Positions 13,717-42,116 of a DNA stretch of 64,000 nt are shown here, piece after piece. Numbering within the stretch: the stretch's first letter is position 1; every line of letters starts with the position of its first letter. This stretch comes from Minisyncoccia bacterium (lineage in GTDB: Bacteria; Patescibacteriota; Minisyncoccia; UBA6257; GWB1-50-10). The DNA is taken from positions 10,483 through 74,482 of the forward strand of contig JBEKVQ010000002.1 of assembly GCA_049997815.1 (NCBI GenBank). The letters are read 5' to 3'. The notes beneath the pieces are model-generated. The model was given only the letters and a program-made list of their open reading frames with translations, ran no database searches and was not told the origin of the DNA. Position numbers and translations under genes: made by a program.

Positions 13717-14184
13717 ATGAGATGGAAACTGCCGCCGAAGATAAAAATATACGAAGCGCTGGGAACGCTCGGGGATGGGCGGCTCGAAATTTCCGGAAAT
13801 TCTGCGAAAGTTCGTTCATCGAGCGGAAATAAATTCTATTCGGTCGCCTACGACCCGAAGGCGAATGCCATCACTTCGAACGATAACAGCTCATACTGGG
13901 TTGGCTACTTGGGCTATCCGGCCATAGCATTCCTCTTATCTAAAGGGGTTATTGATTATAAACCAAAATTTGCCGAAGCACTCGGGGGAATTCCGTGGAA
14001 GGAAGTGAACACTAAATTCAAGAACGATTTTGAAAAGACGGAGGGGTACATTAAAGATGTTTTGAAGAAGAAAGACATAGATGTGGGAAGATTTTCCGAA
14101 GAGATAGAAAAGATTTATGGTGAAATTAAAAAGCTTAAGCTGAATAAACTAGGAATAACCCCAAAACCTCCGGCGGGATACTAA
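13717..14184 (+). CDS. hypothetical protein
   Basis: ORF with reasonable length and a Lys-rich C-terminus; no recognised motif. Confidence 0.35.
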   Translation: MRWKLPPKIKIYEALGTLGDGRLEISGNSAKVRSSSGNKFYSVAYDPKANAITSNDNSSYWVGYLGYPAIAFLLSKGVIDYKPKFAEALGGIPWKEVNTKFKNDFEKTEGYIKDVLKKKDIDVGRFSEEIEKIYGEIKKLKLNKLGITPKPPAGY

Positions 14185-14846: not shown

Positions 14847-16010
14847 CTAATATGTCCGGCTGAAAGCTCTTTTCTGTTTGCCGGACTTATGGGTATACCC
14901 GATTACGGTGAAGCGCTTCTTTGAAAATGGCGACCTCTTGATCTTGTACCCGAAAATATCGGAATTTTCGCAATGTACTAGGCCGATTACGCTGTCGTCG
15001 ACCGCCACTCCCTGTCTCGACTCGAAGTATCTTCTGTCCTGACCTTCCGGCGGAAGAATAATCTCTGCTGCTACGCGGCCATCTGGTAGGAACTTAACAT
15101 GTGTGACGGTATCGAACCTGTTTTCCCATAGCTTACCATCAACTGCGACGGTTTCAGTTCTAGAACCAAGTTTCTCGACAGAAACGGGGATTGCGACCCT
15201 GCCATTCTCATCAAACGCCATCCAGAATCCATCGACGGTAACGAAATCCGTTCCCCATGCCTTGCCATCAACAGCGATCGTCCATCGCGGCTTCAATCCT
15301 CGCTGCTGGATACTCAGACTTGTCGTGAGCGGAACCACGCATTTGCCGTTCGGGGTAAAATGCGGCTGGAATATTTGCTGATTGTTTATGTATGCGTGAT
15401 TAGCACACAGCATAAATGAGTCTGACGCACTGTCGCCGCTATAACGTTCCGGCACCAGGCAAGCCAATGAATCCCATGGTTTATCATCAGCGACAACCAC
15501 CACTTTTCTGTCTCGGATCACGGTGACTGCCAGTCTTCGGCTGTCTGGACTGAATTTGGGAGTTCTCCAATAAAACTCCTCATCGAATGAGGTTCCCCAC
15601 AATTCGTCGTTGACGGCGATCCTAAACTTGCCATTCTCCTTGACAACAGCAGCTAAGCGATTGCCATCGGGGCTTAGTGTAAGAATGTACACCTTGTCGA
15701 ACCAATGGCTCCATGGTCGGGCACCCTCCATAACAATCGTTTCTTTAATCATTCCATCGTTCTCGATCGCTCCATCATGCTCATCAAACTTCGCCTTAAT
15801 GACAGCGACCAATCTTCTTGTCAGTTGATTTGGACATATGCCGTAGTATTGTGCGTCTACCATTTGATATCTTACTCCCTCAAAAAGGTGGCCGCTGCAC
15901 ATATCCTCAAGACAAATTCCTCCTATGGCGATCGATCGATGCAATACCACCTCGGGATTAGATTTCCGGTAAAGATGGTAATCAACCGTATCCTGCCGTT
16001 TCGATTTCAC
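14847..16010 (-). CDS. WG-repeat-containing protein (in an AT-rich islet)
   Basis: Repeated AVDGKAWGT / AVNDELWGT / AVDGKLWEN units spaced about 40-60 aa apart. The gene and both flanks are visibly AT-rich. Confidence 0.55.
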   Translation of the reverse strand: MKSKRQDTVDYHLYRKSNPEVVLHRSIAIGGICLEDMCSGHLFEGVRYQMVDAQYYGICPNQLTRRLVAVIKAKFDEHDGAIENDGMIKETIVMEGARPWSHWFDKVYILTLSPDGNRLAAVVKENGKFRIAVNDELWGTSFDEEFYWRTPKFSPDSRRLAVTVIRDRKVVVVADDKPWDSLACLVPERYSGDSASDSFMLCANHAYINNQQIFQPHFTPNGKCVVPLTTSLSIQQRGLKPRWTIAVDGKAWGTDFVTVDGFWMAFDENGRVAIPVSVEKLGSRTETVAVDGKLWENRFDTVTHVKFLPDGRVAAEIILPPEGQDRRYFESRQGVAVDDSVIGLVHCENSDIFGYKIKRSPFSKKRFTVIGYTHKSGKQKRAFSRTY

Positions 16011-16327: not shown

Positions 16328-16372
16328 TGAAACCAAAATATCCATAGGCAAGCTATGGACATTTTGATTTGT

Positions 16373-16683
16373 GGAGATGGCGAGAATTGAACTCGCGTAC
16401 GGAACGATTCGGCAAACGTTTCTACAAGTTTATTCCCTCGGTTGCCCTTGGGACGGTTTTGCTTTCCTGTTTTAGCGAAGGATACGGAAAGCGGATCTCC
16501 TCCGCGAACTCACGATATGACACCGGTTGATCCCTAGTGAGTATCAGGGCCGATGCGGCATTACGCGAAGGCGAATGCCGGAGCTACCGTTTTGTTGGCA
16601 GTTATCTTAGAGGCCGTTTTAGTGAGCGGCCGCCTCAGCTTGCTGCGCCTGCGTCGTCTATCCCGTCGAAGCCGATCATCCCC
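16373..16683 (-). ncRNA. ssrA: tmRNA (ssrA), one-piece, about 311 nt, CCA not encoded
   Basis: Minus-strand 5' end GGGGAUGAUCGGCUUCGACGGGAUAGACG closely matches the tmRNA consensus (GGGGCUGAUUCUGGAUUCGACGGGAU in E. coli). 3' end GCGAG-UUCAAUU-CUCGC-CAUCUCC-A has a T-arm and an acceptor strand pairing with G3.U70. Internal reading frame GCC AAC AAA ACG GUA GCU CCG GCA UUC GCC UUC GCG UAA gives tag (A)NKTVAPAFAFA. Lies immediately downstream of smpB. Confidence 0.85.
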
Positions 16684-17188: not shown

Positions 17189-18229
17189 ATGAGCATAGAA
17201 GGGAAAACGCATTTTGAGCGGGTCATTGGTGGAACTCAGGAAGATAGGGATAAAGCGTTGCAAGAGCTTCAGGAAATGTTTGAGAACAAGTCCGAGGTAT
17301 TGATGAAACACGAACTTGAGAAGACCGAGGAAGATATAGATATAATCAATAGGACCGCTTCGATTGTGGATGAAATCGTGTCCGAATACGGCGGGGAACC
17401 TAAAGCCATACCCATCGACAAGATCCACATTCTGAAACCGAACAGCGTTTATGAAATGACTGGTGGGAAACTTGCCTCTGGTATCCATAAGGCCCTTAGT
17501 CAGAATATCGGGGTTGAAAAAAGAGAATCTAACCTCCTGTTTTCCGGTTCTATCGCCCACGAACTTTTTCACTCAAAATCCTACAAATCCGCCAGAATCG
17601 ATAACCCAAGCGAGGGCGCACGGCTGTATCGTTTTGGCATTTCCATGACGGGTAAGAGGAATGCAGATACGGAAGCCGAAGAAGAAAGGTGGTATTTCAG
17701 CGTACTAGAAGAAGCAATCGTTTCGGAGTGTACGAATAAGTTTTTTGATCGGGTAAGGCCCGATTCGTTGTTTGCCGACGAAATAAAAGCATCCGACATG
17801 ATACGGGCATGGATCACGGATTTTTATCGCAAATCCGGGATGCCGGAAGAAAGGATAAAGTTAATCAGCGACGAATTAAAAAGTGTGCCGGGCGCTCAAG
17901 AGATCGTAGAGCGGACCCTGTCTTATTCTGAAAGAGAGGAACAAAGATCTGCTTTTGCCGCCGGGATAATAGGTCGGCTGGTTGAAGATAAAAAAATTGA
18001 GGGATTGGGTAGATATGAAGAAAGGACAAAATTATACAAGTTGCTTGATGAGATCATAGAGAAGTCGGGTGGGGAGTTTAAGGAAAGAGAGGAAATTTTC
18101 GCCGAGTTCGCAAAAGCAAATTTCAGCGGCAAATACTTTAAAATAGCTCGCATTATCGAGGGAGTGTTGGGAGAGGGCTCATTCAGGCGCCTAGCGGAAG
18201 AGTTTTCTACTAAACCCAAGAGGGTTTAA
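17189..18229 (+). CDS. hypothetical protein with an HExxH motif (IAHELFH)
   Basis: Possible metalloprotease-like motif; the rest is Glu/Lys-rich helical sequence. No family recognised. Confidence 0.35.
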   Translation: MSIEGKTHFERVIGGTQEDRDKALQELQEMFENKSEVLMKHELEKTEEDIDIINRTASIVDEIVSEYGGEPKAIPIDKIHILKPNSVYEMTGGKLASGIHKALSQNIGVEKRESNLLFSGSIAHELFHSKSYKSARIDNPSEGARLYRFGISMTGKRNADTEAEEERWYFSVLEEAIVSECTNKFFDRVRPDSLFADEIKASDMIRAWITDFYRKSGMPEERIKLISDELKSVPGAQEIVERTLSYSEREEQRSAFAAGIIGRLVEDKKIEGLGRYEERTKLYKLLDEIIEKSGGEFKEREEIFAEFAKANFSGKYFKIARIIEGVLGEGSFRRLAEEFSTKPKRV

Positions 18230-18597: not shown

Positions 18598-20190
18598 ATG
18601 AGCGTTCGCGATGCCATCGCTTCCCATCTCGTTAAAGTCGTACCGAAAGGAACGGTGATAGACCTGCGCGTGCCGGACGAAAACCAAACGGCGCACTATG
18701 CGACCAGCGTTGCTTTCAAGCTCGCGAAGGGAGAAGGAAAGAATCCCCGCGAGGTCGGGGAGAAAATAGTACTCGCCCTTTTGGAATCGGCCCCGGCGGA
18801 ATTCTTCGACCGGGTGGAGGTGACCGGCCCCGGTTTCATCAACTTCTGGCTCAGCCAAGAAACGTTGAATGCGGAGCTAGAGAAGATAATCAAGGAAGGT
18901 AAAAAGTACGGCACGAGCAGAATTCTTAAGGATAAAATTCAGCTGGAATTCATCTCGGCCAATCCCACGGGGCCGCTTACGCTCGCGAACGGCCGGGGAG
19001 GGTTTTTGGGCGACGTGCTGGGAAACGTTTTGAAGGCCGCGGGCGCGGATGTGGAAAAGGAGTACTACGTAAACGATACCGGCAATCAGGTTTTAACATT
19101 CGGCAAATCAATCCTCGCTGCGCGGGGAATCATCAAAGACGAGCAAGATTTTTACAAAGGTGGCTATGTTAACGACTGGGCGAAGAAGAATTCCAAAATC
19201 GTCGCCAAGCTGAAAGACAAACCCCTGGAATTAGGCGAGCGGGCGGCCAAGGACATTTTGAAGAAGATAAAGACCGACATTGAGAAAAAAGCGAAGATAA
19301 AATTCGACCGCTATACGTCCGAAAAGAAAATCCATCAATTGAAATTGCCGGGCAAGATTCTCCAAATCTTCGAAAAAGGTGGGTGGGCGTATGAACAAGA
19401 TGGCGCCGTATGGCTCAAGACGACAGCGTTCGGGGACGATAAGGATAGGGTTCTAATAACAAGCAAGGATAAGTTCCCCACTTATCTTCTGGCCGATGCC
19501 GGCCACTATCTGGAGACCAAGAAGCGCGGCTTCGATACGAAGATAAACATCTTGGGGCCGGATCACTATGGCTATGTGAAAAGAATTCAGGCCGTGGCCC
19601 GAATTCTGAAGTTCAAGAAATCCGAAGTACTTATCACACAGGCCATTCGCCTGATGCGCGACGGGCAGGAATTCAAGATGTCCAAACGGAAAGGAGAGTT
19701 CGTCACATTTGAGGACCTGGTTAGCGAGGTCGGAATGGATTCGGCGCGCTTCTTTTTCCTGATGATTGCGCCCGAGACGCATATGGATTTCGATATGAAT
19801 CTGGCGAAGGAGCGCTCTAACAAAAATCCCGTTTTCTATTTGCAGTACGCCTATGTGCGGGCGAATAACATTTTGAAGAAAGCCAAAGCGCTGGCGGCCC
19901 AAAAGGCCGACCTGAAATTGTTGAATACCGAAGCCGACGTGAAGCTCATCCGGACGCTCGCTCAACTGCCAGAAGTTATCGCGGATACGGCTAATGATTA
20001 TCAGGTTCACCGGCTTACCCGCTATGCACTTGGATTGGCCGGAGATTTCCATAATTTTTATGAGAAGGAAAGGGTGCTCGACGAACCGAAAGACATCGCC
20101 GCCGCGCGCTACAAACTGGTGAAAGCGACGGCGATCATTCTTGAAGATCTTTTCGGCATTTTAGGCATCACGAAATTGAAGAAGATGTAG
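18598..20190 (+). CDS. argS: arginyl-tRNA synthetase
   Basis: SANPTGPL..., the MSKRKG (KMSKS-like) motif of ArgRS, and a DALR anticodon-binding C-terminus. The HIGH motif is degenerate (LTLANGRGG). Confidence 0.9.
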   Translation: MSVRDAIASHLVKVVPKGTVIDLRVPDENQTAHYATSVAFKLAKGEGKNPREVGEKIVLALLESAPAEFFDRVEVTGPGFINFWLSQETLNAELEKIIKEGKKYGTSRILKDKIQLEFISANPTGPLTLANGRGGFLGDVLGNVLKAAGADVEKEYYVNDTGNQVLTFGKSILAARGIIKDEQDFYKGGYVNDWAKKNSKIVAKLKDKPLELGERAAKDILKKIKTDIEKKAKIKFDRYTSEKKIHQLKLPGKILQIFEKGGWAYEQDGAVWLKTTAFGDDKDRVLITSKDKFPTYLLADAGHYLETKKRGFDTKINILGPDHYGYVKRIQAVARILKFKKSEVLITQAIRLMRDGQEFKMSKRKGEFVTFEDLVSEVGMDSARFFFLMIAPETHMDFDMNLAKERSNKNPVFYLQYAYVRANNILKKAKALAAQKADLKLLNTEADVKLIRTLAQLPEVIADTANDYQVHRLTRYALGLAGDFHNFYEKERVLDEPKDIAAARYKLVKATAIILEDLFGILGITKLKKM

Positions 20191-20275
20191 TCATTGACTT
20201 CTTTTCGGAATTAGTCCATACTATTTGCAAGTTCGCTCGTTCACATTTTTCATACACCAACTTAGGGGAGGTCCA

Positions 20276-20614
20276 ATGCACGACACTGGAAACGAAGAAT
20301 ACACATCCATAATGTTCTCGCCTATAGGTGGGGAATTTGGGAAAAACGCATGCAAAACCTGTTTTCGCTCTCTAGATGATGTTCTAGAGGGTGGGATGAG
20401 AGCAGGAATGGCTGGCGGAAGGGAAGACAAACAAGAGCTTCTGATTTCGCTGATGAGCGTGGATGGTCCGGATGAGGAATCGAAAAAGAAACAGAAGTTG
20501 TCGCTGCTGCTTTCCTGGTTAAATAAAGGCAAGAAGCACGATGAAATCGTGAGATGCCCGGAGTGTCACGGAATCCTCCAACTTGACGAAGAGGTCGGAG
20601 AACCAGAAGAGTGA
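20276..20614 (+). CDS. hypothetical protein with a C-terminal zinc-ribbon (CKTC ... CPECHG)
   Basis: Start moved to the ATG 12 nt after AGGGGAGG. Two CxxC pairs. Confidence 0.4.
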   Translation: MHDTGNEEYTSIMFSPIGGEFGKNACKTCFRSLDDVLEGGMRAGMAGGREDKQELLISLMSVDGPDEESKKKQKLSLLLSWLNKGKKHDEIVRCPECHGILQLDEEVGEPEE

Positions 20615-20636
20615 CCGTGCGCGTCGAATTTTAAAG

Positions 20637-20671
20637 GCCGTTCCCGTTTGGTTGGGAACGGCTGGTTTTTT
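20637..20671 (+). terminator. rho-independent terminator (GCCGTTCCC-guuugguu-GGGAACGGC followed by UGGUUUUUU)
   Basis: Perfect 9-bp stem followed by a U-run, between the 20276-20614 ORF and ileS. Confidence 0.6.
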
Positions 20672-20712
20672 GCCAATAACCCGCATTTTTAATAGAATAA
20701 CCATATCCTCAG

Positions 20713-23700
20713 ATGTTAAAGAAACTGGATAAATTTTCCCTTCCGGAGATAGAGGAAAAAGTTCTGGAATTTTGGAAAACCGACAAAATCTTCGAAAAAT
20801 CTTTGACCAAGCGGGCCAAGGGCAAGAAATTCGTCTTCTACGAGGGCCCGCCGTCGGCGAATGCCCGGCCGGGCTTTCATCATATTCTCGCCCGTGTTTT
20901 CAAGGACGCCATTCCGCGCTTCAAGACAATGCGGGGTTTCTACGTGGCGCGGAGGGCCGGGTGGGATACCCATGGGCTTCCGATCGAGGTGCAGACGGAG
21001 AAAACGCTTGGTTTTAAGAACAAGCAGGACATCGAGCATTACGGAATAGCCAAGTTTAACCAGAAGTGCCGGGAGCTCGTCTGGCTCTACAAGGACGAAT
21101 GGGAAAAATTGACCGAGCGGATGGGCTTTTGGATAGACCTCAAAAGTCCCTATATTACCTACGAAAATTCTTACATCGAATCCGTCTGGAACATCCTAAA
21201 ACACGTCTGGGACAAGAAACTTTTGTATGAGGGCCACAAGGTGGTGCCGTGGTGTCCGCGGTGCGGAACGGGGCTTTCTTCGCATGAGTTGGCGCTGGGA
21301 TATAAGGAGGTCACGGATACATCCGTTTACATAAAATTCAAACTGAAACCGGGACAGAAATTCGGCAAATACACGGCGAAGGACTCGGCTTACATTCTGT
21401 CTTGGACGACAACCCCGTGGACCCTGCCGGGGAATATCGCGCTCGCAGTGGGAGAAAAAATCCCCTACACCGCGCTTCGCGTGAGGGGGACGAAAGAGCT
21501 CTATATTCTTGCGAGTGAGCTTATAAAAACCGTTTTTAAAGACCAAGAAATTGAGATCGTGCATGAAGACATAAAAGGCAAGGATCTGATCGATCTTGAA
21601 TACGAACCGCTTTTCGACATTCCGGCGCTGAGATCAAAAACATCGTACAGGATTTATAATGCGAAGTTCGTGACGACGACTGATGGCACGGGCGTGGTGC
21701 ACACGGCCGTGATGTACGGCGAGGACGACTACAATCTCGGAAAGGAAGTCGGCTTGCCGCAAGTCCACACGGTGGATGAGCAGGGAAGGTTCACGAAAGA
21801 CGTGAAGGGATTTGCCGGAATGTTCGTGAAGGCGAAAGAGACGGAGGATAAGGTAATTGAATATTTGAAATCCAGAAATCTTCTCTTGAGAACCGAGCCC
21901 TATAAGCATGAGTATCCCTTTTGCTGGCGTTGCGGTACCCCGCTTTTGTACTATGCCCGCGATTCATGGTTCATTTCGATGTCGAAGCTCCGCGCGCAGC
22001 TTCTCGCGGCGAACAATAAGGTCAACTGGATACCGGAAAATATCAAGGACGGTCGCTTCGGCGAATGGCTGAAAGACGTGAAAGATTGGGCCATCTCCCG
22101 AGAGCGCTACTGGGGTACGCCGTTGCCCATCTGGGTCTGCGAAAAGTGCGGGCACAAGAAATGCATCGGAAGCATTGCGGAATTGGAGGAAGGCCGGAAG
22201 AAGAGCTCGAACCGCTATATATTAGTGCGTCACGGTGAAGCGGAGAACAACCTGGAAAATATCATTGACCACGTCTTCGAGAAATCCCGCTCCAATCTCA
22301 CGCTTAAGGGACATACCCAGATTGATAGGCTGGGCAAGAAGTTTTCAAAAGAGAAGATAGACGCTATTTTTGCCTCGGATTTTCCGCGCACTAAGCAGAC
22401 GGCCGACATTTTGGCCTCGGCCTTGGGGGTAAAAAAAGTAAATCTCGACAAGCGATTAAGAGAAGCCGATCTGGGAATTTTGGAAGGTCACCAGGCATAC
22501 GAATATCACAAGTTTTATCCGGACGACATGGAAAAATTTGCGAACCCGCCGGAGGGTGGAGAGAGCCTGAATCAATTGAGAGGACGCCTTAATGATTTTA
22601 TAGAAGAAAGAGAAAAAGAGTTTTCCGGAAAGACCATCTTAGTCGTGAGCCATGAATACCCAATTTGGATGTTTGCGAGCATTCTCGAGGGTTGGGGCAA
22701 CCGCGAGGCGGTCGAGGAAAAACATCGGCGCGGAGAGGATTTTATAGACAGAGGCGAGGCGCAGGAATACCGCTTTCATAATTTGCCGAGAAATGACAAC
22801 GGTGAGATGGATATTCACCGCCCCTATTTGGATGATATAAAATTCGTCTGTGGAAAGTGCGGCGGAAAGATGGAACGCGTGAAAGAGGTGATTGATGTAT
22901 GGTTCGACTCCGGCGCGATGCCGTTCGCGCAGGACCACTGGCCGTTCTCCAAAGACCGAAAGCTGGATTATCCGGCGGACTTTATCTCCGAGGCGATGGA
23001 CCAGACCCGCGGCTGGTTCTACACTCTCCTCGCCATAGGCGTTCTAATGGGTAAAAACAGCCCCTACAGGAACGTTATCTGCCTGGGACTCATATTGGAT
23101 AAGAACGGCCAAAAGATGTCCAAATCCAAGGGAAACGTCGTGGACCCGTGGGAGATGATGAAGAAGCATGGCGTAGACGCCATCCGCTGGTACTTTTATA
23201 CCGTTAATCCGCCGGGCGAACCGAAGAAGTTCGACGAACTCGAACTTACAAAAACCTCCCGTCAGCTCTTCTCTTTGCTTTATAACTCGTTCGTATTTTT
23301 CGAAACATACAAAAGTAAGAATTCAAAATTCAAAATTCAAAATTTGAAATTCACGAACGTGCTGGATAAATGGATTTTGAGTCGCCTGAACGAAACGATT
23401 GATGTAGCCACTAAGAGATTGAATGAATATGCAATCGGAGATGCGGGGCGGGTGATGGAGAATTTCATCGGCGACCTTTCACGGTGGTATATCCGCCGTT
23501 CCCGGAGGCGTTTTCAGAAGCCGGATGATGGGAAGGATTACGCGGCGGCCTCAAGCGTGCTGGGCTATGTGCTTTTGGAAACGAGCAAGCTCATGGCGCC
23601 TCTTGCCCCGTTCTTTGCCGAAGCGCTCTATAAGTCGCTCTCAGATGACGAGTCCGTCCATCTGGCCGATTGGCCGAAGGTGGATAAGAAACTCGTGGAG

Positions 23701-24207
23701 AGAAAGCTCTCCGCAGCGATGGAAGAAGTGAGGGGTATCGCAAGCGCGGTTCTCTCGAAGCGGGCCGAGGTTGGGATTAAGGTTCGCCAGCCGCTTCAGA
23801 CGCTAAAAATCAAGGATATTAAATTAAAAATACAGAAAGAATTGCTAGGTATCCTAAAGGACGAGGTAAACGTGAAAGATGTGAAGTTCGATGCCAAGCT
23901 AAAGACCGACTTCGAGCTGGATACCCGGATAACCCACGAACTCAAAGAGGAGGGAATTCTGCGGGAGCTTATCCGCACCATTCAAGACCTACGCCAGGAT
24001 GCGAAGATGAAACCGCAGGACATCGTTCTACTTTTTCTTGACGGTCCCGATGAATTGAAAATGATTGTCTCAAAGTTCGGCGAGCTCTTAAAGAAAGAGG
24101 TGAAAGCGAAGAGAATCGAATTAGGAAAGCCGCCCAGATTTGATGCGGAGATTGAAACTAGGATAGAAGAAATGCCGGTTTGGGTGGGGATTAAAAAGGC
24201 GAACTAG
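20713..24207 (+). CDS. ileS: isoleucyl-tRNA synthetase carrying an inserted histidine-phosphatase (PGAM-like) domain of about 205 aa
   Basis: WTTTPWTLPGN, KMSKSKGN and the zinc knuckles CEKCGH / CGKCGG are all present. Between them (aa 495-700 or so; nt 22195-22809) sits RYILVRHGEAENN...LKGHTQIDRLG...SDFPRTKQTA...ILVVSHEYPIWM, which looks like a complete RHG/His phosphatase fold. Total 1164 aa. Confidence 0.9.
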   Translation: MLKKLDKFSLPEIEEKVLEFWKTDKIFEKSLTKRAKGKKFVFYEGPPSANARPGFHHILARVFKDAIPRFKTMRGFYVARRAGWDTHGLPIEVQTEKTLGFKNKQDIEHYGIAKFNQKCRELVWLYKDEWEKLTERMGFWIDLKSPYITYENSYIESVWNILKHVWDKKLLYEGHKVVPWCPRCGTGLSSHELALGYKEVTDTSVYIKFKLKPGQKFGKYTAKDSAYILSWTTTPWTLPGNIALAVGEKIPYTALRVRGTKELYILASELIKTVFKDQEIEIVHEDIKGKDLIDLEYEPLFDIPALRSKTSYRIYNAKFVTTTDGTGVVHTAVMYGEDDYNLGKEVGLPQVHTVDEQGRFTKDVKGFAGMFVKAKETEDKVIEYLKSRNLLLRTEPYKHEYPFCWRCGTPLLYYARDSWFISMSKLRAQLLAANNKVNWIPENIKDGRFGEWLKDVKDWAISRERYWGTPLPIWVCEKCGHKKCIGSIAELEEGRKKSSNRYILVRHGEAENNLENIIDHVFEKSRSNLTLKGHTQIDRLGKKFSKEKIDAIFASDFPRTKQTADILASALGVKKVNLDKRLREADLGILEGHQAYEYHKFYPDDMEKFANPPEGGESLNQLRGRLNDFIEEREKEFSGKTILVVSHEYPIWMFASILEGWGNREAVEEKHRRGEDFIDRGEAQEYRFHNLPRNDNGEMDIHRPYLDDIKFVCGKCGGKMERVKEVIDVWFDSGAMPFAQDHWPFSKDRKLDYPADFISEAMDQTRGWFYTLLAIGVLMGKNSPYRNVICLGLILDKNGQKMSKSKGNVVDPWEMMKKHGVDAIRWYFYTVNPPGEPKKFDELELTKTSRQLFSLLYNSFVFFETYKSKNSKFKIQNLKFTNVLDKWILSRLNETIDVATKRLNEYAIGDAGRVMENFIGDLSRWYIRRSRRRFQKPDDGKDYAAASSVLGYVLLETSKLMAPLAPFFAEALYKSLSDDESVHLADWPKVDKKLVERKLSAAMEEVRGIASAVLSKRAEVGIKVRQPLQTLKIKDIKLKIQKELLGILKDEVNVKDVKFDAKLKTDFELDTRITHELKEEGILRELIRTIQDLRQDAKMKPQDIVLLFLDGPDELKMIVSKFGELLKKEVKAKRIELGKPPRFDAEIETRIEEMPVWVGIKKAN

Positions 24208-25061
24208 AACCTTCTCAATTGCGAGGCGATTCCGTAAAATACATTATCGCGCTCGTCCTTGTCTTCTCTGGTTAGGCCCCTTTCCTGCCTCTCTTTTAAT
24301 TTTTGTCCGTAGATTTTTTCTAGGATCCCGATATCGCGGTCGTATATCTCAACAATTTCTTTCTTACCGAGGTTTTCAGCGTGCCTTCTGAAGGTTTTTA
24401 GTTCGATCACCGCCTCCTCAAGGATTTGGAGTTGTATCCAGTGGTTGCCGAGAGCTTTTTTGTCTCCTGCCAGCCATAATTCGCCCAGCTCTCTTATGGT
24501 CTTTGCCTCAGCCCCGATTATGACTCGGGGGATGTGAGGAAGTTTCTGTGGTGGAGTATTTTTGGACACGAAGTACTTAACCTGGGTCAATTGGCCGCTT
24601 TCGATTTCTTGTTTTACCCTATTGAATTGCTGTTCCACTGTGTCGGTGCTAAGAGTCACGTCAATACCCAACGCTAGATAAGATGGGACTGTTTGGGGTT
24701 CTTTCTCAAATTCGACCACCGTATCAACGCCATTCTTGATTTTATCGAAGCGCGACGCATTAACGGCGGAAGCATCCCCGCCGAACAAGTTGCCCGCTTC
24801 ACTTTGTTGATTCACGATGACCTTAAAGAGCGTATTTAATCTATTCCCAACCGTCCCCTCCGCCCCGTTCCTCTCAGCGAACTCCTTTTCCTTTCTAACG
24901 ACGAAATCTTTATCGTTGGCAATCTCCTCCGTTGTGTAGTCCGGACTGCCGATAAATTCGTCGAGTTTGATCTCCTTCTCCTTCGATTTTAACTCAGCTC
25001 TATCGAGGGCTTTGTTCAGGTCGATTTCCTCGAGATTTCGTGCCTCGTAGTTTAATGTCAT
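24204..25061 (-). CDS. hypothetical protein
   Basis: 285-aa ORF convergent with ileS and overlapping it by 4 nt. No motif recognised. Confidence 0.4.
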   Translation of the reverse strand: MTLNYEARNLEEIDLNKALDRAELKSKEKEIKLDEFIGSPDYTTEEIANDKDFVVRKEKEFAERNGAEGTVGNRLNTLFKVIVNQQSEAGNLFGGDASAVNASRFDKIKNGVDTVVEFEKEPQTVPSYLALGIDVTLSTDTVEQQFNRVKQEIESGQLTQVKYFVSKNTPPQKLPHIPRVIIGAEAKTIRELGELWLAGDKKALGNHWIQLQILEEAVIELKTFRRHAENLGKKEIVEIYDRDIGILEKIYGQKLKERQERGLTREDKDERDNVFYGIASQLRRF

Positions 25062-25085
25062 ATTTTCGTGATACCACCAAATGAG

Positions 25086-26072
25086 TTATTTGTAAAGCCC
25101 AATCTTCTTTTTCACTTCCAAAAGCTTTTTTGAAGCCACGGTGTTGGCCTCTTTGTTTCCGGCCGCGACACTCTTATTTATAAGAGTGGTGTTTTTTGAG
25201 AGTTCCTCCTTTTTCTTTTGGAACGGCGTAAGGGTTTTTACTGCGACCTCCGCCAAGTCGCGTTTGAATTGGCCATAGCCCTTGCCGGCGTACTTCTTTT
25301 CGATTTTTGCGCTGGTCTCTCCCGATAGGGCGGAGTAGAGGAGAATCAAATTACCGATCCCTTCCTTACCCTCAATGTCGGCTTTTACCTCACTTCTGGA
25401 GTCCGTGACCGCGCTCATTATTTTTTTGCGGATTGTGTCCGGAGAATCGTCAATGAAAAGGCAGCCAGCCGGGCGGGATTTGGACATTTTCTTTTTTGGC
25501 TCATCCAAACTCATTATCCTTGAGGCCCTGGTCAGAATCGGCTGGGGTTCAATGAACGTTTCTCCGTACTTGTTGTTGAACTTTCTGGCGATGGTTCGGG
25601 TGAACTCCAGGTGCTGGAGCTGGTCGTCACCCACCGGTACGAATTTGGCGTCGTAGAGAATGATATCGGCGGCCATAAGGACGGGGTAGTCAAAAAGCCC
25701 CAGGTTTATGTTTTCCGAGGCGTGTTCGGATTTATCCTTGAATTGCGTCATCCGGCTAAGTTCTCCGAACGGCGTAATGGTATTCAGAATCCAAGCGAGT
25801 TCCGAGTGGGCCGGCACGGCGGATTGGATGAAGATAATAGATTTCTTTGGGTCAATGCCGGCAGCAAGCATATCCAAGACCACATTTTTAATCTGTGCCG
25901 GTTTGTCTTTGGGATTGAAATCCTCCGTGAGCGAATGTAAGTCCGCCACGAAAAAGTAGCACTGGTACTTGCCGGAGTTTTGGAGGTGAACGGCGTTCTT
26001 GAGCATCCCCAAGTAATTGCCGATATGAAGTTTTCCTGTCGGCTGAATGCCGGATACCAAGATTGGTTTCAT
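25086..26072 (-). CDS. trpS: tryptophanyl-tRNA synthetase
   Basis: GIQPTGKLHIGNYLG (HIGH region) and KMSKS. Confidence 0.85.
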   Translation of the reverse strand: MKPILVSGIQPTGKLHIGNYLGMLKNAVHLQNSGKYQCYFFVADLHSLTEDFNPKDKPAQIKNVVLDMLAAGIDPKKSIIFIQSAVPAHSELAWILNTITPFGELSRMTQFKDKSEHASENINLGLFDYPVLMAADIILYDAKFVPVGDDQLQHLEFTRTIARKFNNKYGETFIEPQPILTRASRIMSLDEPKKKMSKSRPAGCLFIDDSPDTIRKKIMSAVTDSRSEVKADIEGKEGIGNLILLYSALSGETSAKIEKKYAGKGYGQFKRDLAEVAVKTLTPFQKKKEELSKNTTLINKSVAAGNKEANTVASKKLLEVKKKIGLYK

Positions 26073-26121: not shown

Positions 26122-27855
26122 TTAGACCTCGATTATAACCGGTAGTATCATCGGCCTCCGTTTCGTCTTCGTAAAGAGATACTGGCCGATTTGGTCGCGG
26201 ATGAGGGCCTTCAGATAGTCCGCGTCAACCTCCTGCCCGTGAGGTAATCGGCCGACGATACCGCGCACCTTGCGCCGAATCTCGTCCAACATGGTCTGGT
26301 TTTCCTTCAGGTATATGAAGCCGCGGGAAATGATGTCGGGATTTTTCAAGACCCGGCCGGTCTTCCGTTCCAGTGTCGTGATGATGACGAACATTCCTTC
26401 CTCGGCGAGCATCAGCCGGTCGCGGAGAACCACTTCGCCCACGTCGCCTACACCTAAGCCATCCACCATGACGTAGTTGGCCGGCACTTCCTCATTCGTG
26501 ACTCTAACGGAATCCTTGGCGATCTCGACAACTTGGCCGTTGTCCACCATTACCGTTTCCTCCGGTTTCAGCCCCAGCACCTCCTGGGCATGCTTGGCAT
26601 TCCTCATTCTCATGAAGTAGTAGCCGTGAATAGGCAGGAAGAATCTAGGATGAACCAGCTTCATTACGGCTTTCAGTTCTTCCATCGGCGCGTGGCCGGA
26701 GGAATGGATGTCGAGCATGGTGAAGTGGTAGATGGTCGGTCCCTGACGCGCCAGATTATCCTTCAAAACTTGAACGCTGTGTTCGTTCCCGGGGACTATC
26801 GAGGAAGAAAGAATGAGCGTATCCGAGGGTTTCAATCTGATGTAGCGGTGTTCCTTGTTCGCAATGCGCATCATGGTCGCGTTGGATTCTCCCTGGGCGC
26901 CGGTGCAGATCAGGAGCAATTTCTCGTCCCGATGTTTATTGATTTCCTCGAGCGGGATAATCGTTCCTTTCTGTATCTTCATATAGCCGAGATTCTGGGC
27001 GATTTGGATGTTACTCTTCATGGAGTAGCCGCTTAAGGCCACCTTCCGGCCCAGTTTCTCGGCGATCTTTATTATCTCGGCCAGCCGGTCGAGAAGTGAA
27101 GCGAACGTCGCTATCAAAATCCTTCCCTGCGCTGCCTTAAAGAGTTTTTCCAGCTCCCTTTCGACGACCCTCTCGGAGAGGGACCAGCCGGGTTTTTCGG
27201 CTCCGGTAGAGTCAAGCATCAGGGTGTGAATACCCTGATCGCCGACCCACTTCCATTGGTCCAGGCCGCGCGGCTTACCCTCATTGTCGTAGTCGAATTT
27301 GAACTCGCCGGGGTGAACAATCTTCCCAATCGGCGTGTGGAGAATTATTCCGACACCTTCGGGGATGTTGTGAACGACGTCAAAGAATTCGGCTTTGAAA
27401 TACTGGCCGAACGGATGGGTCTCCCCGCCTTTGACTATCACGAAGTTCGGTTTGGGCGAATTCGGAAAATCGTCCTGGCGCTTCATGATAATTTCTTTCG
27501 ATATCTCGGTCGTGTAGATGACCGGGTTGCCAAGTTTGTCCAAAATGTATGGTATGGCACCGATGTGGTCGTAGTGGCCGTGGGTGACAATGAGGCCCTT
27601 AATATTTTTCCTTCTTTCCTCAAGATAGGTGACGTTCGGGATGATGTAATCTATGCCCGGCGTCGCCGCTTCGGGGAATTGAAGGCCGGCATCGATGATG
27701 AGGATTTCGTCTTTGTACTCGAAGAACATCATGTTGCGGCCGATTTCCTCGAGACCTCCGAGTGCAGCAAAGCGGACGGAATCCGCCTTTGGACCCCTTT
27801 CTTTTTCTTCGGGCTTTCTGTAAGCCCTGACTTTTGTTGTTGGTTTTTGAACCAT
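26122..27855 (-). CDS. rnj: ribonuclease J (metallo-beta-lactamase / beta-CASP)
   Basis: HGHYDHIGA motif with beta-CASP region; typical RNase J length and N-terminus. Confidence 0.85.
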   Translation of the reverse strand: MVQKPTTKVRAYRKPEEKERGPKADSVRFAALGGLEEIGRNMMFFEYKDEILIIDAGLQFPEAATPGIDYIIPNVTYLEERRKNIKGLIVTHGHYDHIGAIPYILDKLGNPVIYTTEISKEIIMKRQDDFPNSPKPNFVIVKGGETHPFGQYFKAEFFDVVHNIPEGVGIILHTPIGKIVHPGEFKFDYDNEGKPRGLDQWKWVGDQGIHTLMLDSTGAEKPGWSLSERVVERELEKLFKAAQGRILIATFASLLDRLAEIIKIAEKLGRKVALSGYSMKSNIQIAQNLGYMKIQKGTIIPLEEINKHRDEKLLLICTGAQGESNATMMRIANKEHRYIRLKPSDTLILSSSIVPGNEHSVQVLKDNLARQGPTIYHFTMLDIHSSGHAPMEELKAVMKLVHPRFFLPIHGYYFMRMRNAKHAQEVLGLKPEETVMVDNGQVVEIAKDSVRVTNEEVPANYVMVDGLGVGDVGEVVLRDRLMLAEEGMFVIITTLERKTGRVLKNPDIISRGFIYLKENQTMLDEIRRKVRGIVGRLPHGQEVDADYLKALIRDQIGQYLFTKTKRRPMILPVIIEV

Positions 27856-41355: not shown

Positions 41356-41730
41356 TTATAATTCAAATTTTCTTCCCTGATAATTCATCGCTTCTTGAAC
41401 AAGTAGTGCATCGTTTTTTGTGCTGTGCTTTATGGTGTGGCAGTTGGCACAGAGGAGCTCGCATTTTTTCAGTTCACTTTTTATCACTTCCCATTTTTTA
41501 TTCGCAACATTTCCTATTATAAAATCTTTCTTTTTAGGATTCGTATGGTGGAATTGAAGTGCAGCTTGATTACCGCGCCAACCACAATTCACACATTTCC
41601 CTCCAAGGTACTTTATGGCTGCCGCTTTGGTCCGAAATCTCCTTACCTTCGTGTTGCAAGAGCCGCATCTAGCCCTGCATCTGCTTTGGTAGTCTTTAAA
41701 CGCGTTGCCACACAATTTACATATCCTCAT
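41356..41730 (-). CDS. free-standing HNH endonuclease (Cys-rich, zinc-finger flanked)
   Basis: Multiple CxxC pairs and a C-terminal LLCANCHTIKH HNH core. AT-rich gene lying 90 bp from the intron-containing tRNA. Confidence 0.65.
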   Translation of the reverse strand: MRICKLCGNAFKDYQSRCRARCGSCNTKVRRFRTKAAAIKYLGGKCVNCGWRGNQAALQFHHTNPKKKDFIIGNVANKKWEVIKSELKKCELLCANCHTIKHSTKNDALLVQEAMNYQGRKFEL

Positions 41731-41818: not shown

Positions 41819-42112
41819 GCCGCGGTAGCTCAGTGGTAGAGCGCTACCCTAAACTCTTTGGGGCCTTCCGCAGTAATGTGGATTGAATAATTGGGTGAAT
41901 TCGGGGGAAACTTCTTAAAAGAAATAATCCCGAGCCAAGCTCTGATGGGATCCGTCAGTTGGCGGAGGTATCGGAGAAGGTGTAGAGACTAGTAGGTGAG
42001 TCCCAACGATAATCCTACGCAAGCGCCCAACTTCCTTTTAGAAGGAAGATGATATAGTCCAAGCAAACCTTGGAAGAGGTAGGCGTCGGGTGTTCGATTC
42101 ACCCCCGCGGCA
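41819..42112 (+). tRNA. tRNA-Phe (anticodon GAA) interrupted by a 222-nt group I intron in the anticodon loop
   Basis: 5' exon GCCGCGGUAGCUCAGUGGUAGAGCGCUACCCU (41819-41850). 3' exon GAAGAGGUAGGCGUCGGGUGUUCGAUUCACCCCCGCGGCA (42073-42112). The joined exons fold as a canonical tRNA that is very similar to E. coli tRNA-Phe. Confidence 0.75.
41851..42072 (+). ncRNA. group I (IC3-like) self-splicing intron
   Basis: Exon U33 precedes the 5' splice site, which can pair CCCU.GGGG with intron nt 10-13 (P1). The intron ends in G. Contains GAGCCAAGCU and AAGGUGUAGAGACUAGUAGG segments that closely match the P7/P3 cores of bacterial tRNA introns (for example Azoarcus/Anabaena). Confidence 0.7.
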
Positions 42113-42116
42113 CAAA

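What the first reader, a model, noticed from the sequence alone, without database searches (positions are those of the whole stretch)
22195..22809. Histidine-phosphatase (PGAM-like) domain inserted inside isoleucyl-tRNA synthetase
ileS is otherwise canonical (WTTTPWTLPGN, KMSKS, two zinc knuckles) but is 1164 aa long. A continuous insert of about 205 aa lies between the first zinc knuckle (IWVCEKCGH...ELEEG) and the DIHRPYLDD / CGKCGG segment. The insert reads RYILVRHGEAENN ... LKGHTQIDRLG ... SDFPRTKQTADIL ... GESLNQLRGR ... ILVVSHEYPIWM. That is the full catalytic signature (RHG ... R ... H) of the phosphoglycerate-mutase / histidine-phosphatase superfamily.

It is in-frame and continuous, so it is a domain insertion rather than a neighbouring gene. 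I am not aware of a described aaRS carrying a phosphatase domain. Possible roles include editing-related hydrolysis, (p)ppGpp/Ap4A-type nucleotide metabolism, or a regulatory moonlighting activity.
Basis: seen in the sequence. Interest (0 to 1): 0.8.

Follow-up and report, generated by a model that had tools for sequence, protein, structure and literature searches.

The report
Phosphatase domain nested inside isoleucyl-tRNA synthetase
An essential protein-synthesis enzyme (isoleucyl-tRNA synthetase) of an uncultivated Patescibacteria (CPR) bacterium carries a complete phosphatase with an intact active site spliced into one of its surface loops; related bacteria encode the same phosphatase as a separate gene next door, which points to an unrecognised link between this phosphatase and tRNA charging.

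Summary
ORF 20713-24207 (+) is one uninterrupted 1164-aa type-2 IleRS. Residues ~494-697 (22192-22803) form a complete branch-1 histidine phosphatase domain (Pfam His_Phos_1, E=5e-36; AF2 pLDDT 96; nearest folds PspA and PhoE). It replaces an 8-residue loop between the two CxxC knuckles of the second zinc module.

It is not a misassembly. All 120 nearest homologues (55-100% identity, independent Patescibacteria assemblies, contigs up to 775 kb) have the domain. The catalytic residues R506, H507, R559, E584 and H647 are 97-100% conserved.

New findings:
- In relatives whose IleRS lacks the insert, a free ~189-aa homologue lies immediately upstream of ileS (6/6 loci; argS-hisphos-ileS in 5).
- Insert-bearing loci, including this window, lack that gene (5/5).
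- Other lineages carry the domain in different IleRS loops, in 2-4 copies, or fused to the ArgRS C-terminus.

So the insert is an operon partner relocated into ileS, probably still an active phosphomonoesterase.

The substrate is unknown. I favour a small phosphorylated metabolite or nucleotide by-product over tRNA or protein. No description was found in the searchable literature. I class it as a new variant of a known kind (an aaRS with an accessory catalytic domain). Interest 0.7.

The parts
20713..24207 (+). ileS: a 1164-aa type-2 isoleucyl-tRNA synthetase carrying the nested phosphatase domain
   Evidence: ORF. TIGR00392 scores 909 bits. The Pfam order is tRNA-synt_1 / His_Phos_1 / tRNA-synt_1g / Anticodon_1 / DUF5915. 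The full-length AF2 model has pLDDT 88.7 and pTM 0.78. Foldseek matches it to 8c8w (TMt 0.79) and 7d5c (TMt 0.89).
20872..20883 (+). GFHH (aa 54-57): the non-canonical GXHH form of the class-I HIGH signature
   Evidence: Translation. G54, H56 and H57 are invariant in A3. PMC10485003 ties this motif to mupirocin hyper-resistance.
22138..22149 (+). First CxxC knuckle (C476-E-K-C479) of the second zinc module, just upstream of the insert
   Evidence: Translation. C476 is 100% and C479 98% conserved.
22192..22803 (+). Nested histidine phosphatase domain (aa 494-697), including its short linkers
   Evidence: Boundaries from the alignment to 8c8w. PF00300 E=1.8e-37 on the segment alone. AF2 pLDDT 95.9. 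Foldseek matches PspA and PhoE. Insert-less relative L036 lacks exactly ref aa 497-699.
22228..22236 (+). RHG motif (R506-H507-G508); H507 is the predicted phospho-accepting nucleophile
   Evidence: Translation. R506 and H507 are 100% conserved in 117 homologues. They are invariant in A1 and A2.
22387..22389 (+). R559, the second phosphate-pocket arginine (SDFPRTKQTA motif)
   Evidence: 100% conserved.
22462..22464 (+). E584, the predicted general acid (READLGILEG motif)
   Evidence: 97% conserved. It aligns with the E of PspA 4ij5 'EIDHGMWSG'.
22651..22653 (+). H647, the second catalytic histidine (VVSHEYP)
   Evidence: 100% conserved.
22849..22860 (+). Second CxxC knuckle (C713-G-K-C716), just downstream of the insert
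   Evidence: Translation. C713 is 99% and C716 100% conserved.
23113..23127 (+). KMSKS signature loop of IleRS, intact
   Evidence: Translation. K801-S805 are invariant in A3.
18598..20190 (+). argS, the upstream neighbour. In relatives the free-standing His_Phos gene sits between argS and ileS.
   Evidence: Pfam Arg_tRNA_synt_N / tRNA-synt_1d / DALR_1. Synteny in L030-L036. tblastn finds no second His_Phos copy in the window.

Best explanation
Residues ~494-697 of this Patescibacteria IleRS are a complete branch-1 histidine phosphatase with an intact active site. The domain is nested in the loop between the two CxxC knuckles of the second zinc module, in the connective-peptide region.

Shown:
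- The domain has the full catalytic set: R506 and H507 (nucleophile), R559, E584 (general acid), H647, plus E617 and R625.
- It folds as an independent His_Phos domain.
- The IleRS body is intact: GXHH, CP1 editing domain, KMSKS and anticodon-binding domains.
- The architecture is vertically conserved across a large Patescibacteria (Paceibacteria/Parcubacteria-type) clade.

Shown by comparison:
- The insert is the counterpart of a free-standing ~189-aa phosphatase gene that lies immediately upstream of an insert-less ileS in related genomes, usually as argS-hisphos-ileS-recO. The two states are mutually exclusive in every locus examined.
- The same domain has also been captured in other IleRS surface loops (near ref aa 748 and 871, and others), in 2-4 copies per IleRS, and at the ArgRS C-terminus.

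Inferred mechanism:
- The domain works as an autonomous phosphomonoesterase through a phospho-His507 intermediate.
- It is tethered to IleRS for 1:1 co-expression and proximity, not for precise active-site coupling.
- Its substrate is most likely a small phosphorylated metabolite or nucleotide by-product connected with adenylate-forming (ATP -> AMP + PPi) chemistry, rather than tRNA or protein. The exact substrate is unknown.

Graded confidence:
- Active phosphatase derived from the operon partner: about 0.9.
- Small-molecule substrate: about 0.6.
- Specific link to aminoacylation by-products: about 0.35.
For: Domain identity: PF00300 E=4.9e-36. AF2 pLDDT 95.9, pTM 0.92. Foldseek probability 1.0 to the small-molecule phosphatases PspA (4ij5), PhoE (1h2e), Rv2419c, CobC and 9mmh. 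phmmer to 4ij5 gives 1e-14.

Catalytic residues: 97-100% conserved in 117 IleRS homologues. The pattern RH(N)REERH is kept in site A, B, C, 'other' and fusion classes, apart from position N19, which is A in one 'other' copy and Q in the ArgRS fusion.

Not an artefact: 120 of the 120 nearest clusters carry PF00300, on contigs up to 775 kb.

Origin: free homologues lie directly upstream of an insert-less ileS in 6/6 loci. Insert-bearing loci L002, L003, L005, L006 and the window have argS-ileS with no free copy.

Other captures: multiple insertion sites and copy numbers. Sites B and C coincide with the low-pLDDT loops 746-748 and 871-880 of the full model. The ArgRS fusion occurs in 3 clusters.

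Hints at a nucleotide or adenylate theme:
- TsaC and QueC fusions.
- CYTH and HD_3 genes in the same operon slot.
- Median domain charge is close to neutral to mildly basic across classes (site A +0.5, free +4.1), with no extra RNA-binding module.
Against: - No substrate can be read from the sequence. All NCBIfam equivalog models (dPGM_arch, PspA, CobC, GpmB, SixA) score far below their cut-offs.
- The TsaC and QueC fusions were each seen on a single contig. CYTH and HD_3 neighbours were each seen in one lineage.
- PPi is not a typical branch-1 His_Phos substrate. Hydrolysing AMP would be wasteful for an organism that scavenges nucleotides (general knowledge).
- In this window a terminator-like hairpin and a small ORF separate argS from ileS, so the 'operon' is not strict here.
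- No 3D coordinates were available, so the position of the phosphatase pocket relative to the synthetic and editing sites or the tRNA path is unknown.
- The rough NJ tree cannot tell one insertion followed by losses from several independent gains.
Confidence: 0.6

Rival explanations
1. A housekeeping metabolic enzyme riding along with ileS. The domain would be the lineage's divergent phosphoglycerate mutase, phosphoserine phosphatase or general sugar-phosphate phosphatase. Its position beside or inside ileS would only secure constitutive co-expression in a tiny genome, with no mechanistic link to aminoacylation.
For: - The best NCBIfam hit is the short archaeal dPGM model (85 bits), followed by RNase H/acid phosphatase and PspA. 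The nearest solved relative is the PspA phosphoserine phosphatase.
- Jaffe et al. 2020 note that PGM is not detected in several shallow Parcubacteria clades, possibly because the forms are too divergent (PMC7304191).
- The domain functions free-standing in relatives.
- Insertion in several different loops implies no geometric coupling.
Against: - All equivalog cut-offs are missed by a wide margin: dPGM_arch 85 against 225, PspA 74 against 350, gpmA-type models 17-40 against 300-380.
- The gene is tied to ileS in 6/6 free-standing contexts. It has been captured repeatedly by IleRS (at least 3-4 sites, up to 4 copies) and by ArgRS. That is hard to explain by chance for an unrelated glycolytic enzyme.
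Confidence: 0.27
2. A macromolecular repair or immunity phosphatase. The domain would remove 2'/3'-phosphate or pyrophosphate from the tRNA 3' end (end-healing, or reversal of CapRel-type toxin marks). Alternatively it would remove toxin-kinase (HipA/HipT-type) phosphates from the synthetase itself, giving IleRS a built-in repair activity.
For: - The domain is associated with two tRNA-charging enzymes, IleRS and ArgRS, and sits in a translation-gene block: smpB, infC, rpmI, rplT.
- Precedents from general knowledge: the HD phosphatase domain of the E. coli CCA-adding enzyme; PGAM-family protein phosphatases (SixA, PGAM5, Sts-1).
- A toxin-antitoxin pair lies between hisphos and ileS in L035.
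- The IleRS carries the inhibitor-resistance GXHH motif, which suggests this enzyme is under antagonistic pressure.
Against: - No RNA-binding module, and charges range from near neutral to mildly basic.
- The closest structural relatives all act on small molecules.
- Tolerance of several insertion loops, the ArgRS C-terminus and the free-standing form argues against a fixed position near A76.
- The TsaC and QueC partners do not bind tRNA 3' ends.
- No His_Phos enzyme is known to heal RNA ends (my knowledge).
Confidence: 0.12
3. A structural or neutral insertion. The domain would be a non-catalytic spacer or tRNA-binding surface, or an effectively neutral domain capture in insertion-tolerant CPR proteins.
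For: The insertions sit in flexible, low-confidence surface loops. Large inserts in CPR proteins are common (general knowledge).
Against: The complete catalytic set is 97-100% conserved across IleRS proteins 55-100% identical overall, whose insert segments are only about 40% identical to the window's. Across the nested, fused and free-standing domain classes the catalytic arginines, histidines and the second glutamate are retained almost without exception; E90 is replaced by Asp in a minority of copies, and N19 is the variable position. This pattern indicates purifying selection on catalysis.
Confidence: 0.04
4. An assembly chimera, an unrecognised intein, or a frameshifted neighbouring gene.
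For: None beyond prior suspicion of metagenome assemblies.
Against: - The frame is continuous.
- The same architecture appears in 120/120 nearest clusters from NCBI, JGI, ENA and Logan assemblies.
- There is no Hint/intein Pfam hit.
- The junctions lack the intein Cys/Ser...HN signature (sequence).
- There is no compositional break. No flanking target-site repeats were found other than the two homologous CxxC codon motifs.
Confidence: 0.01

Closest known systems
Type-2 isoleucyl-tRNA synthetase (IleRS2), e.g. Priestia megaterium IleRS2 (PDB 8c8w) and T. thermophilus IleRS (1ile)
   Same: - Whole-length homology on both sides of the insert: phmmer E=2e-248, Foldseek TMt 0.79-0.87.
- It has the CP1 editing domain, both zinc modules, KMSKS, Anticodon_1 and the type-2 C-terminal domain (DUF5915).
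- It has the GXHH variant of the HIGH motif described for hyper-resistant IleRS2 (PMC10485003).
   Different: About 204 extra residues forming a foreign catalytic domain replace the 8-residue loop 477-484 of 8c8w. No solved IleRS found by the sequence or fold search aligns across the insert, which replaces an 8-residue loop in the closest one, 8c8w. A recent evolutionary survey of IleRS domain organisation has no occurrence of 'phosphatase', 'CPR' or 'Patescibacteria' in its text (bioRxiv 10.64898/2026.02.03.703510).
Small branch-1 histidine phosphatases: PspA phosphoserine phosphatase (4ij5), PhoE/YhfR (1h2e), CobC alpha-ribazole phosphatase, Rv2419c
   Same: Same fold (query-normalised TM 0.67-0.75). 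Same catalytic constellation: RHG, second Arg, Glu, second His. Same size, about 190-210 aa.
   Different: - Only 21-30% identity, and it misses every NCBIfam equivalog cut-off.
- It has a subfamily-specific loop after RHG. The homologue consensus is '..SWPEK.K.HLTLKG'; the window's own sequence there is 'DHVFEKSRSNLTLKG'.
- It is nested in, or genetically tied to, an aaRS. The substrate is unknown.
Free-standing Patescibacteria His_Phos proteins of ~189 aa in the argS-hisphos-ileS block (e.g. P0147, P0324, P0371)
   Same: They are 32-43% identical to the insert, with the same catalytic residues and length. They occupy the same genomic neighbourhood and are mutually exclusive with the insert.
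   Different: They are separate polypeptides. Databases annotate them only as 'histidine phosphatase family protein', 'broad specificity phosphatase PhoE' or 'putative phosphoglycerate mutase'.
Other nucleic-acid or translation enzymes with an appended phosphatase or foreign catalytic domain: Mycobacterium Rv2228c-type RNase H/acid phosphatase (NCBIfam PRK07238), IleRS with a GNAT domain (NCBIfam NF040702 ileS_w_GNAT), the E. coli CCA-adding enzyme HD domain
   Same: The concept is the same: a housekeeping nucleic-acid or translation enzyme carrying a second catalytic domain. The PRK07238 phosphatase half matches the insert at 82-86 bits.
   Different: - The partner enzymes or the inserted domains differ.
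- The window protein scores far below the cut-offs of both models: 82 against 326, and 315 against 1999.
- Here the domain is nested inside the catalytic body rather than appended. I did not check where the GNAT domain sits.

Membership tests
Histidine phosphatase superfamily, branch 1 (Pfam PF00300 His_Phos_1) | Profile match above the curated gathering threshold | tested here: met
   124.7 bits against 21.7, E=4.9e-36, aa 503-665, profile positions 2-165 of 194.
Histidine phosphatase superfamily, branch 1 (Pfam PF00300 His_Phos_1) | N-terminal RHG motif with a nucleophilic His, plus a second Arg, a second His and an acidic proton donor | tested here: met
   R506-H507-G508, R559, E584 and H647 are present. 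They are 97-100% conserved in 117 homologues and retained in all architecture classes.
Histidine phosphatase superfamily, branch 1 (Pfam PF00300 His_Phos_1) | Alpha/beta PGAM-like fold | tested here: met
   AF2 pLDDT 95.9, pTM 0.92. Foldseek probability 1.0, query-normalised TM 0.65-0.75 to PspA, PhoE, TIGAR and dPGM structures.
Histidine phosphatase superfamily, branch 1 (Pfam PF00300 His_Phos_1) | Phosphatase or mutase activity through a phospho-histidine intermediate | not testable with these tools
   This needs an enzyme assay with an H507A control.
Cofactor-dependent phosphoglycerate mutase (dPGM; NCBIfam NF038349 dPGM_arch, pgm_1, gpmA models) | Score at or above the equivalog cut-off | tested here: not met
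   dPGM_arch 85 bits against 225. TIGR01258 23.9 against 81.7. PRK14115/14119/14120 score 17-23 against 305-378.
PspA-type phosphoserine phosphatase (NF045917) and CobC alpha-ribazole phosphatase (TIGR03162) | Score at or above the equivalog cut-off | tested here: not met
   PspA 74-79 bits against 350. CobC 72-76 bits against 162.9.
Isoleucyl-tRNA synthetase (TIGR00392 ileS) | Equivalog-level profile match across both halves | tested here: met
   909.3 bits against 621.4, in two stretches flanking the insert.
Isoleucyl-tRNA synthetase (TIGR00392 ileS) | Class-I signature motifs (HIGH-type and KMSKS), CP1 editing domain, anticodon-binding domain | tested here: met
   GFHH (the GXHH variant) at aa 54-57 and KMSKS at aa 801-805. 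WTTTPWTLPGN lies in CP1. The CP1 segment matches the isolated editing-domain structure 1wk8. Anticodon_1 E=2e-31.
Type-2 IleRS (IleRS2) | Closest to IleRS2 structures, type-2 C-terminal domain rather than the IleRS1 C-terminal zinc-binding domain, and optionally the GXHH motif | tested here: met
   The best PDB hits are PmIleRS2 8c8w/8c8v and TtIleRS; IleRS1 structures score much lower. DUF5915 is the C-terminal domain. GXHH is as described in PMC10485003.
Acquired mupirocin-resistance IleRS, MupA/MupB (NF000257/NF000258) | Score at or above the exception-model cut-off | tested here: not met
   784-818 bits against 1900.
IleRS with a GNAT domain (NF040702 ileS_w_GNAT) | Score at or above the cut-off, with an acetyltransferase domain present | tested here: not met
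   315 bits against 1999. No acetyltransferase Pfam hit.
Intein or other self-splicing protein insertion | Hint domain; Cys/Ser/Thr at the N-junction and His-Asn plus Cys/Ser/Thr at the C-junction | tested here: not met
   No Hint, intein or LAGLIDADG Pfam hit at E<=0.01. The junctions read ...ELEEG|RKKSS... and ...RNDNG|EMDIH....

The most novel reading that the evidence does not exclude
The nested phosphatase is a functionally integrated third catalytic activity of the synthetase. It would be a built-in repair or immunity module that removes phosphate or pyrophosphate from the tRNA(Ile) 3' end, or from the synthetase itself, before charging. That would counter tRNA- or aaRS-targeting toxins in the crowded episymbiotic lifestyle of CPR bacteria. 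Repeated capture of the domain by IleRS (four or more sites, up to four copies) and by ArgRS would then reflect selection for proximity to the tRNA substrate.
Probability: 0.12. Interest if true: 0.9.

Novelty: new variant of a known kind. Interest (0 to 1): 0.7.

Why it matters
Aminoacyl-tRNA synthetases are among the best-studied enzymes. Their accessory domains (editing, tRNA-binding, regulatory) have each revealed new biology.

Here, a second enzyme with an intact active site is nested inside the catalytic body of an essential synthetase. It is conserved across a major uncultivated bacterial radiation. It is genetically locked to ileS and argS even when free-standing, and it has been captured again and again at different sites.

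This implies a phosphatase function coupled to tRNA charging, or to its by-products, that is not part of the textbook picture. It gives a concrete, cloneable handle: one domain, one predicted nucleophile (H507).

It also bears on an annotation problem in CPR genomes. The free-standing homologues are variously annotated as 'PhoE' or 'putative phosphoglycerate mutase', while the nested copies are annotated only as (iso)leucyl/class-I tRNA ligase, so the phosphatase is invisible. Either labelling may mislead metabolic reconstructions.

If the function turns out to be unrelated metabolism, the case still documents an unusual evolutionary route: an operon neighbour relocated into flexible loops of the adjacent essential gene.

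Tried and rejected
- **Misassembly, intein or frameshift:** rejected.
- **Direct repeats at the insert borders as a mobile-element footprint:** the only flanking repeat (22135-22151 and 22846-22862) is simply the two homologous V-C-x-K-C-G knuckle codons.
- **Remnant of a free His_Phos gene in the argS-ileS spacer:** none found by tblastn. The spacer holds a small Zn-ribbon ORF and a terminator instead.
- **Assignment to a specific enzyme (dPGM, PspA, CobC, GpmB, SixA):** every NCBIfam equivalog cut-off is missed.
- **Domain-level relationships, to ask whether nested domains are monophyletic:** pairwise identities are flat at 0.27-0.35 between all classes, so this is unresolved. The NJ tree of the IleRS core places insert-less enzymes among insert-bearing ones, but it is too crude to count gains and losses.
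- **Charge and pI as a proxy for RNA binding:** not discriminating.
- **Foldseek against afdb50 for an architecture census:** the library was not available.
- **GTDB genome scan with a single-sequence query:** it recovered only 8 insert-bearing loci, because the pattern method needs close relatives. The remaining 21 loci were insert-less Bacteroidota or archaeal IleRS that matched only the flanks.
- **TsaC and QueC fusions as support for an 'adenylate-forming partner' theme:** each was seen on one contig only, so I kept them as weak leads.
- **ArgRS fusion:** real but rare, 3 of the 120 nearest ArgRS clusters.
- **Literature:** six searches for IleRS or aaRS combined with histidine phosphatase, PGAM, CPR or Patescibacteria returned nothing relevant.
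- **Spatial relation of the phosphatase pocket to the IleRS active sites:** this could not be measured because model coordinates are not returned.
Full report
**1. The observation**

The window holds one uninterrupted ORF, 20713..24207 (+), of 1164 aa. There is no compositional break across the region: GC is 0.47-0.53.

Pfam splits the protein as follows:
- tRNA-synt_1 (aa 17-503, then resuming)
- His_Phos_1 (PF00300, aa 503-665, E=4.9e-36, 124.7 bits against a cut-off of 21.7)
- tRNA-synt_1g
- Anticodon_1
- DUF5915

NCBIfam calls the whole protein ileS: TIGR00392 scores 909 bits against a cut-off of 621.

Alignment to the closest solved structure, Priestia megaterium IleRS2 (8c8w), pairs query residue 493 with chain residue 476 and query residue 698 with chain residue 485. 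About 204 residues (aa 494-697; nt 22192-22803) therefore replace an 8-residue loop. The loop lies between the knuckles C476-E-K-C479 and C713-G-K-C716.

PMC10485003 defines the two halves of the PmIleRS2 catalytic core as residues 40-168 and 513-632. The insertion point therefore lies in the connective-peptide region just before the second half of the core.

**2. The domain is real and the assembly is sound**

The insert alone, modelled from an alignment of 39 homologous segments, gives AF2 pLDDT 95.9 and pTM 0.92. Foldseek finds histidine phosphatases with probability 1.0, among them:
- PspA phosphoserine phosphatase (4ij5/4ij6)
- PhoE (1h2e)
- mycobacterial hydrolases
- Rv2419c
- the riboflavin-pathway HFP (9mmh)
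- CobC
- TIGAR
- dPGMs

Among the best-ranked hits the query-normalised TM-scores are 0.65-0.75.

The full-length model has pLDDT 88.7 and pTM 0.78. The insert is confidently folded (block means 87-96), with a softer N-terminal linker (block 491-500, pLDDT 74). Its IleRS body superposes on IleRS2 structures: 8c8w TMt 0.79, 7d5c TMt 0.89.

All 120 best homologues are 55-100% identical to the query. They come from NCBI, JGI, ENA and Logan assemblies, on contigs up to 775 kb. Source names include Minisyncoccia, Paceibacterota, Jorgensenbacteria, Wolfebacteria and Parcubacteria. Every one carries PF00300 within IleRS.

No Hint/intein signal is present, and no flanking repeats of a mobile element.

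**3. The phosphatase looks catalytically competent**

In 117 full-length homologues the residues are conserved as follows:

| Residue | Conservation |
|---|---|
| R506 | 100% |
| H507 | 100% |
| R559 | 100% |
| E584 | 97% |
| H647 | 100% |
| E617 | 100% |
| R625 | 99% |

The mean identity of the insert segments to the window's is only about 40-50%. This is the signature of purifying selection on catalysis.

All specific enzyme models fall far below their cut-offs: dPGM_arch 85 against 225, PspA 74 against 350, CobC 72 against 163, with GpmB and SixA also short. The substrate cannot be named from the sequence.

**4. Where the domain came from**

An exhaustive phmmer search with the insert against 1.84 billion cluster representatives gave 11,671 hits at E<=1e-3 and 1,049 at E<=1e-10.

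I classified the best 150 with HMMs of the IleRS N-flank, the insert and the C-flank (counts of near-complete domains):
- 88 domains at the same site ('A')
- 55 domains with no detectable IleRS flank, mostly stand-alone proteins of about 190 aa, plus a few fragments, tandem pairs and fusions to other enzymes
- several other architectures

A profile of the free proteins finds a large Patescibacteria family. Its members are annotated only as 'histidine phosphatase family protein', 'PhoE' or 'putative phosphoglycerate mutase'.

I looked up six such free genes on long contigs. All six lie immediately upstream of an insert-less ileS (818-987 aa). Five of them sit in the order argS-hisphos-ileS-recO (L030/31, L032, L033/34, L035, L036, L037).

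Conversely, insert-bearing loci with a visible upstream flank (L002, L003, L005, L006) have argS directly followed by ileS, with no free copy. The window shows the same pattern: argS at 18598-20190, ileS at 20713, and a single His_Phos hit in 64 kb.

The two states are mutually exclusive in 11 of 11 loci. The simplest reading is that the nested domain is the operon partner relocated into ileS and performs the same job.

**5. Repeated capture**

Some IleRS carry the domain elsewhere:
- After about ref aa 748 (site B): P0266 alone; P0160, P0223 and P0185 together with another copy.
- After about ref aa 871, just before the anticodon-binding domain (site C): P0160, P0223, P0252.
- Near ref aa 424-432, with four copies in total: P0144.

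Copies within one protein are only about 35% identical, so they are not assembly repeats. All copies keep the seven catalytic and phosphate-pocket residues scored (R12, H13, R65, E90, E123, R131, H153 in insert numbering); the eighth position scored, N19, is Ala in one P0144 copy.

Sites B and C coincide with the least confident loops of the full-length model: 746-748 below 50, and block 871-880 at 64. These are permissive surface loops.

The adjacent argS has also fused to the domain (P0203, L038). Three of the 120 nearest ArgRS clusters carry it, one of them only 49% identical.

Single examples exist of fusions to TsaC/Sua5 and to QueC.

**6. Mechanism**

Shown:
- An intact IleRS.
- An intact His_Phos active site.
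- Two short linkers.
- Equivalence to a free-standing operon partner.
- Tolerance of many attachment points.

Inferred:
- The domain acts autonomously through phospho-His507.
- Fusion serves stoichiometry and proximity rather than channelling between precisely placed sites.

I favour a small-molecule substrate for four reasons:
- All the near structural relatives are small-molecule phosphatases.
- There is no RNA-binding add-on or strong positive charge.
- The occasional partners TsaC and QueC do not handle tRNA 3' ends. From general knowledge, TsaC, IleRS and ArgRS all form an adenylate and release PPi. QueC is an ATP-dependent PP-loop enzyme whose products I am less sure of.
- The same operon slot can hold a CYTH triphosphatase (L033/34) or an HD_3 nucleotidase-type gene (L035).

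Whether the substrate is a by-product of adenylate chemistry or an unrelated metabolite cannot be decided here. An unrelated metabolite could be, for example, the substrate of the PGM reported as undetected in some Parcubacteria clades (PMC7304191).

A tRNA-end or protein-phosphatase role is less supported but not excluded.

**7. Comparison with what is known**

The host is a type-2 IleRS. It carries the non-canonical GXHH signature (GFHH, aa 54-57), which Brkic et al. linked to mupirocin hyper-resistance (PMC10485003).

The guest is a member of Pfam His_Phos_1. All testable defining features are met, but it belongs to no characterised equivalog.

NCBIfam already recognises one IleRS with a foreign catalytic domain (ileS_w_GNAT) and an RNase H/acid-phosphatase fusion. 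The window protein meets neither cut-off.

I found no paper describing a histidine phosphatase in an aaRS. A 2026 survey of IleRS domain evolution has no occurrence of 'phosphatase', 'CPR' or 'Patescibacteria' in its text.

The sequences themselves have been public for years, for example a Wolfebacteria GW2011 entry in UniRef.

**8. Verdict**

Novelty: a new variant of a known kind (an aaRS with an accessory catalytic domain). It is widespread in databases but apparently undescribed.

The added findings raise its interest: operon origin, mutual exclusivity, and recurrent capture at several loops and by ArgRS. The unknown substrate limits how far the claim can go. Interest 0.7.

Noticed in passing
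window 20872-20883 (aa 54-57 of IleRS): The class-I HIGH signature is GFHH, i.e. the swapped GXHH form. G54, H56 and H57 are invariant in the 56-sequence alignment. PMC10485003 showed that GXHH confers mupirocin hyper-resistance on IleRS2, so this whole CPR clade may be intrinsically hyper-resistant.
   Followed up: partly
window 41841-42082 (+), with ORF 41356-41730 (-) and ORF 42090-42587 (+): Rfam group I catalytic intron (RF00028, 69.4 bits, full-length model match) in an apparently intergenic stretch. It lies next to a Cys-rich ORF of 124 aa that looks HNH-like. ARAGORN and Rfam found no flanking tRNA or rRNA exon, so the interrupted host gene is unidentified.
   Followed up: partly
window 20276-20614 (+) and 20637-20672: The argS-ileS spacer is where relatives keep the free His_Phos gene. 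Here it holds a 112-aa ORF with a good RBS (AGGGGAGG) and two CxxC pairs (Zn-ribbon-like), with no Pfam hit. A strong terminator-like hairpin with a T-run follows, so ileS probably has its own promoter.
   Followed up: no
L041 4001-8260 (P0160), L042 1932-6191 (P0252); also P0223, P0185, P0144, P0183: IleRS proteins of 1379-1419 aa with two His_Phos domains, and one fragment-like protein with four. The domains sit in different loops (near ref aa 748 and 871, and others), and every copy keeps the catalytic residues. L041 has a different gene neighbourhood (DAHP synthase, SLH-domain protein).
   Followed up: partly
L038 5001-7070 (P0203); P0390, P0391: ArgRS with a C-terminal His_Phos domain. 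This is apparently a read-through fusion of the adjacent argS and hisphos genes. In L038 recO follows directly and ileS is elsewhere.
   Followed up: partly
L039 977-2140 (P0253); L040 3361-5100 (P0268): Single-contig examples of the same phosphatase subfamily fused to TsaC/Sua5 (t6A synthesis) and to QueC (preQ0 synthesis). L040 also carries a Vut_1 queuosine-precursor transporter.
   Followed up: partly
L033 8570-9160 and L034 3939-4529; L035 5652-6819: Extra genes are wedged between the free hisphos gene and ileS. One lineage has a CYTH (triphosphate tunnel) protein. Another has an RHH antitoxin, a ParE/YafQ-type toxin and an HD_3 phosphohydrolase.
   Followed up: no
L037 313-4853; L033 4890-5663: bAvd plus a reverse transcriptase (RVT_1), followed by a 1015-aa protein, lie immediately upstream of the hisphos-ileS pair. 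This looks like a diversity-generating retroelement. An RVT_1 gene also lies near the block in L033.
   Followed up: no
window 16369-16683 (-), 18598-26072, 26122-27855 (-): Translation and RNA-metabolism cluster: tmRNA (tag peptide ANKTVAPAFAFA), argS, ileS, a 285-aa ORF with no Pfam hit that overlaps the ileS stop codon on the opposite strand (24204-25061), trpS and RNase J. Three sizeable ORFs upstream (13717-14184, 14847-16010, 17189-18229) have no Pfam hit.
   Followed up: no
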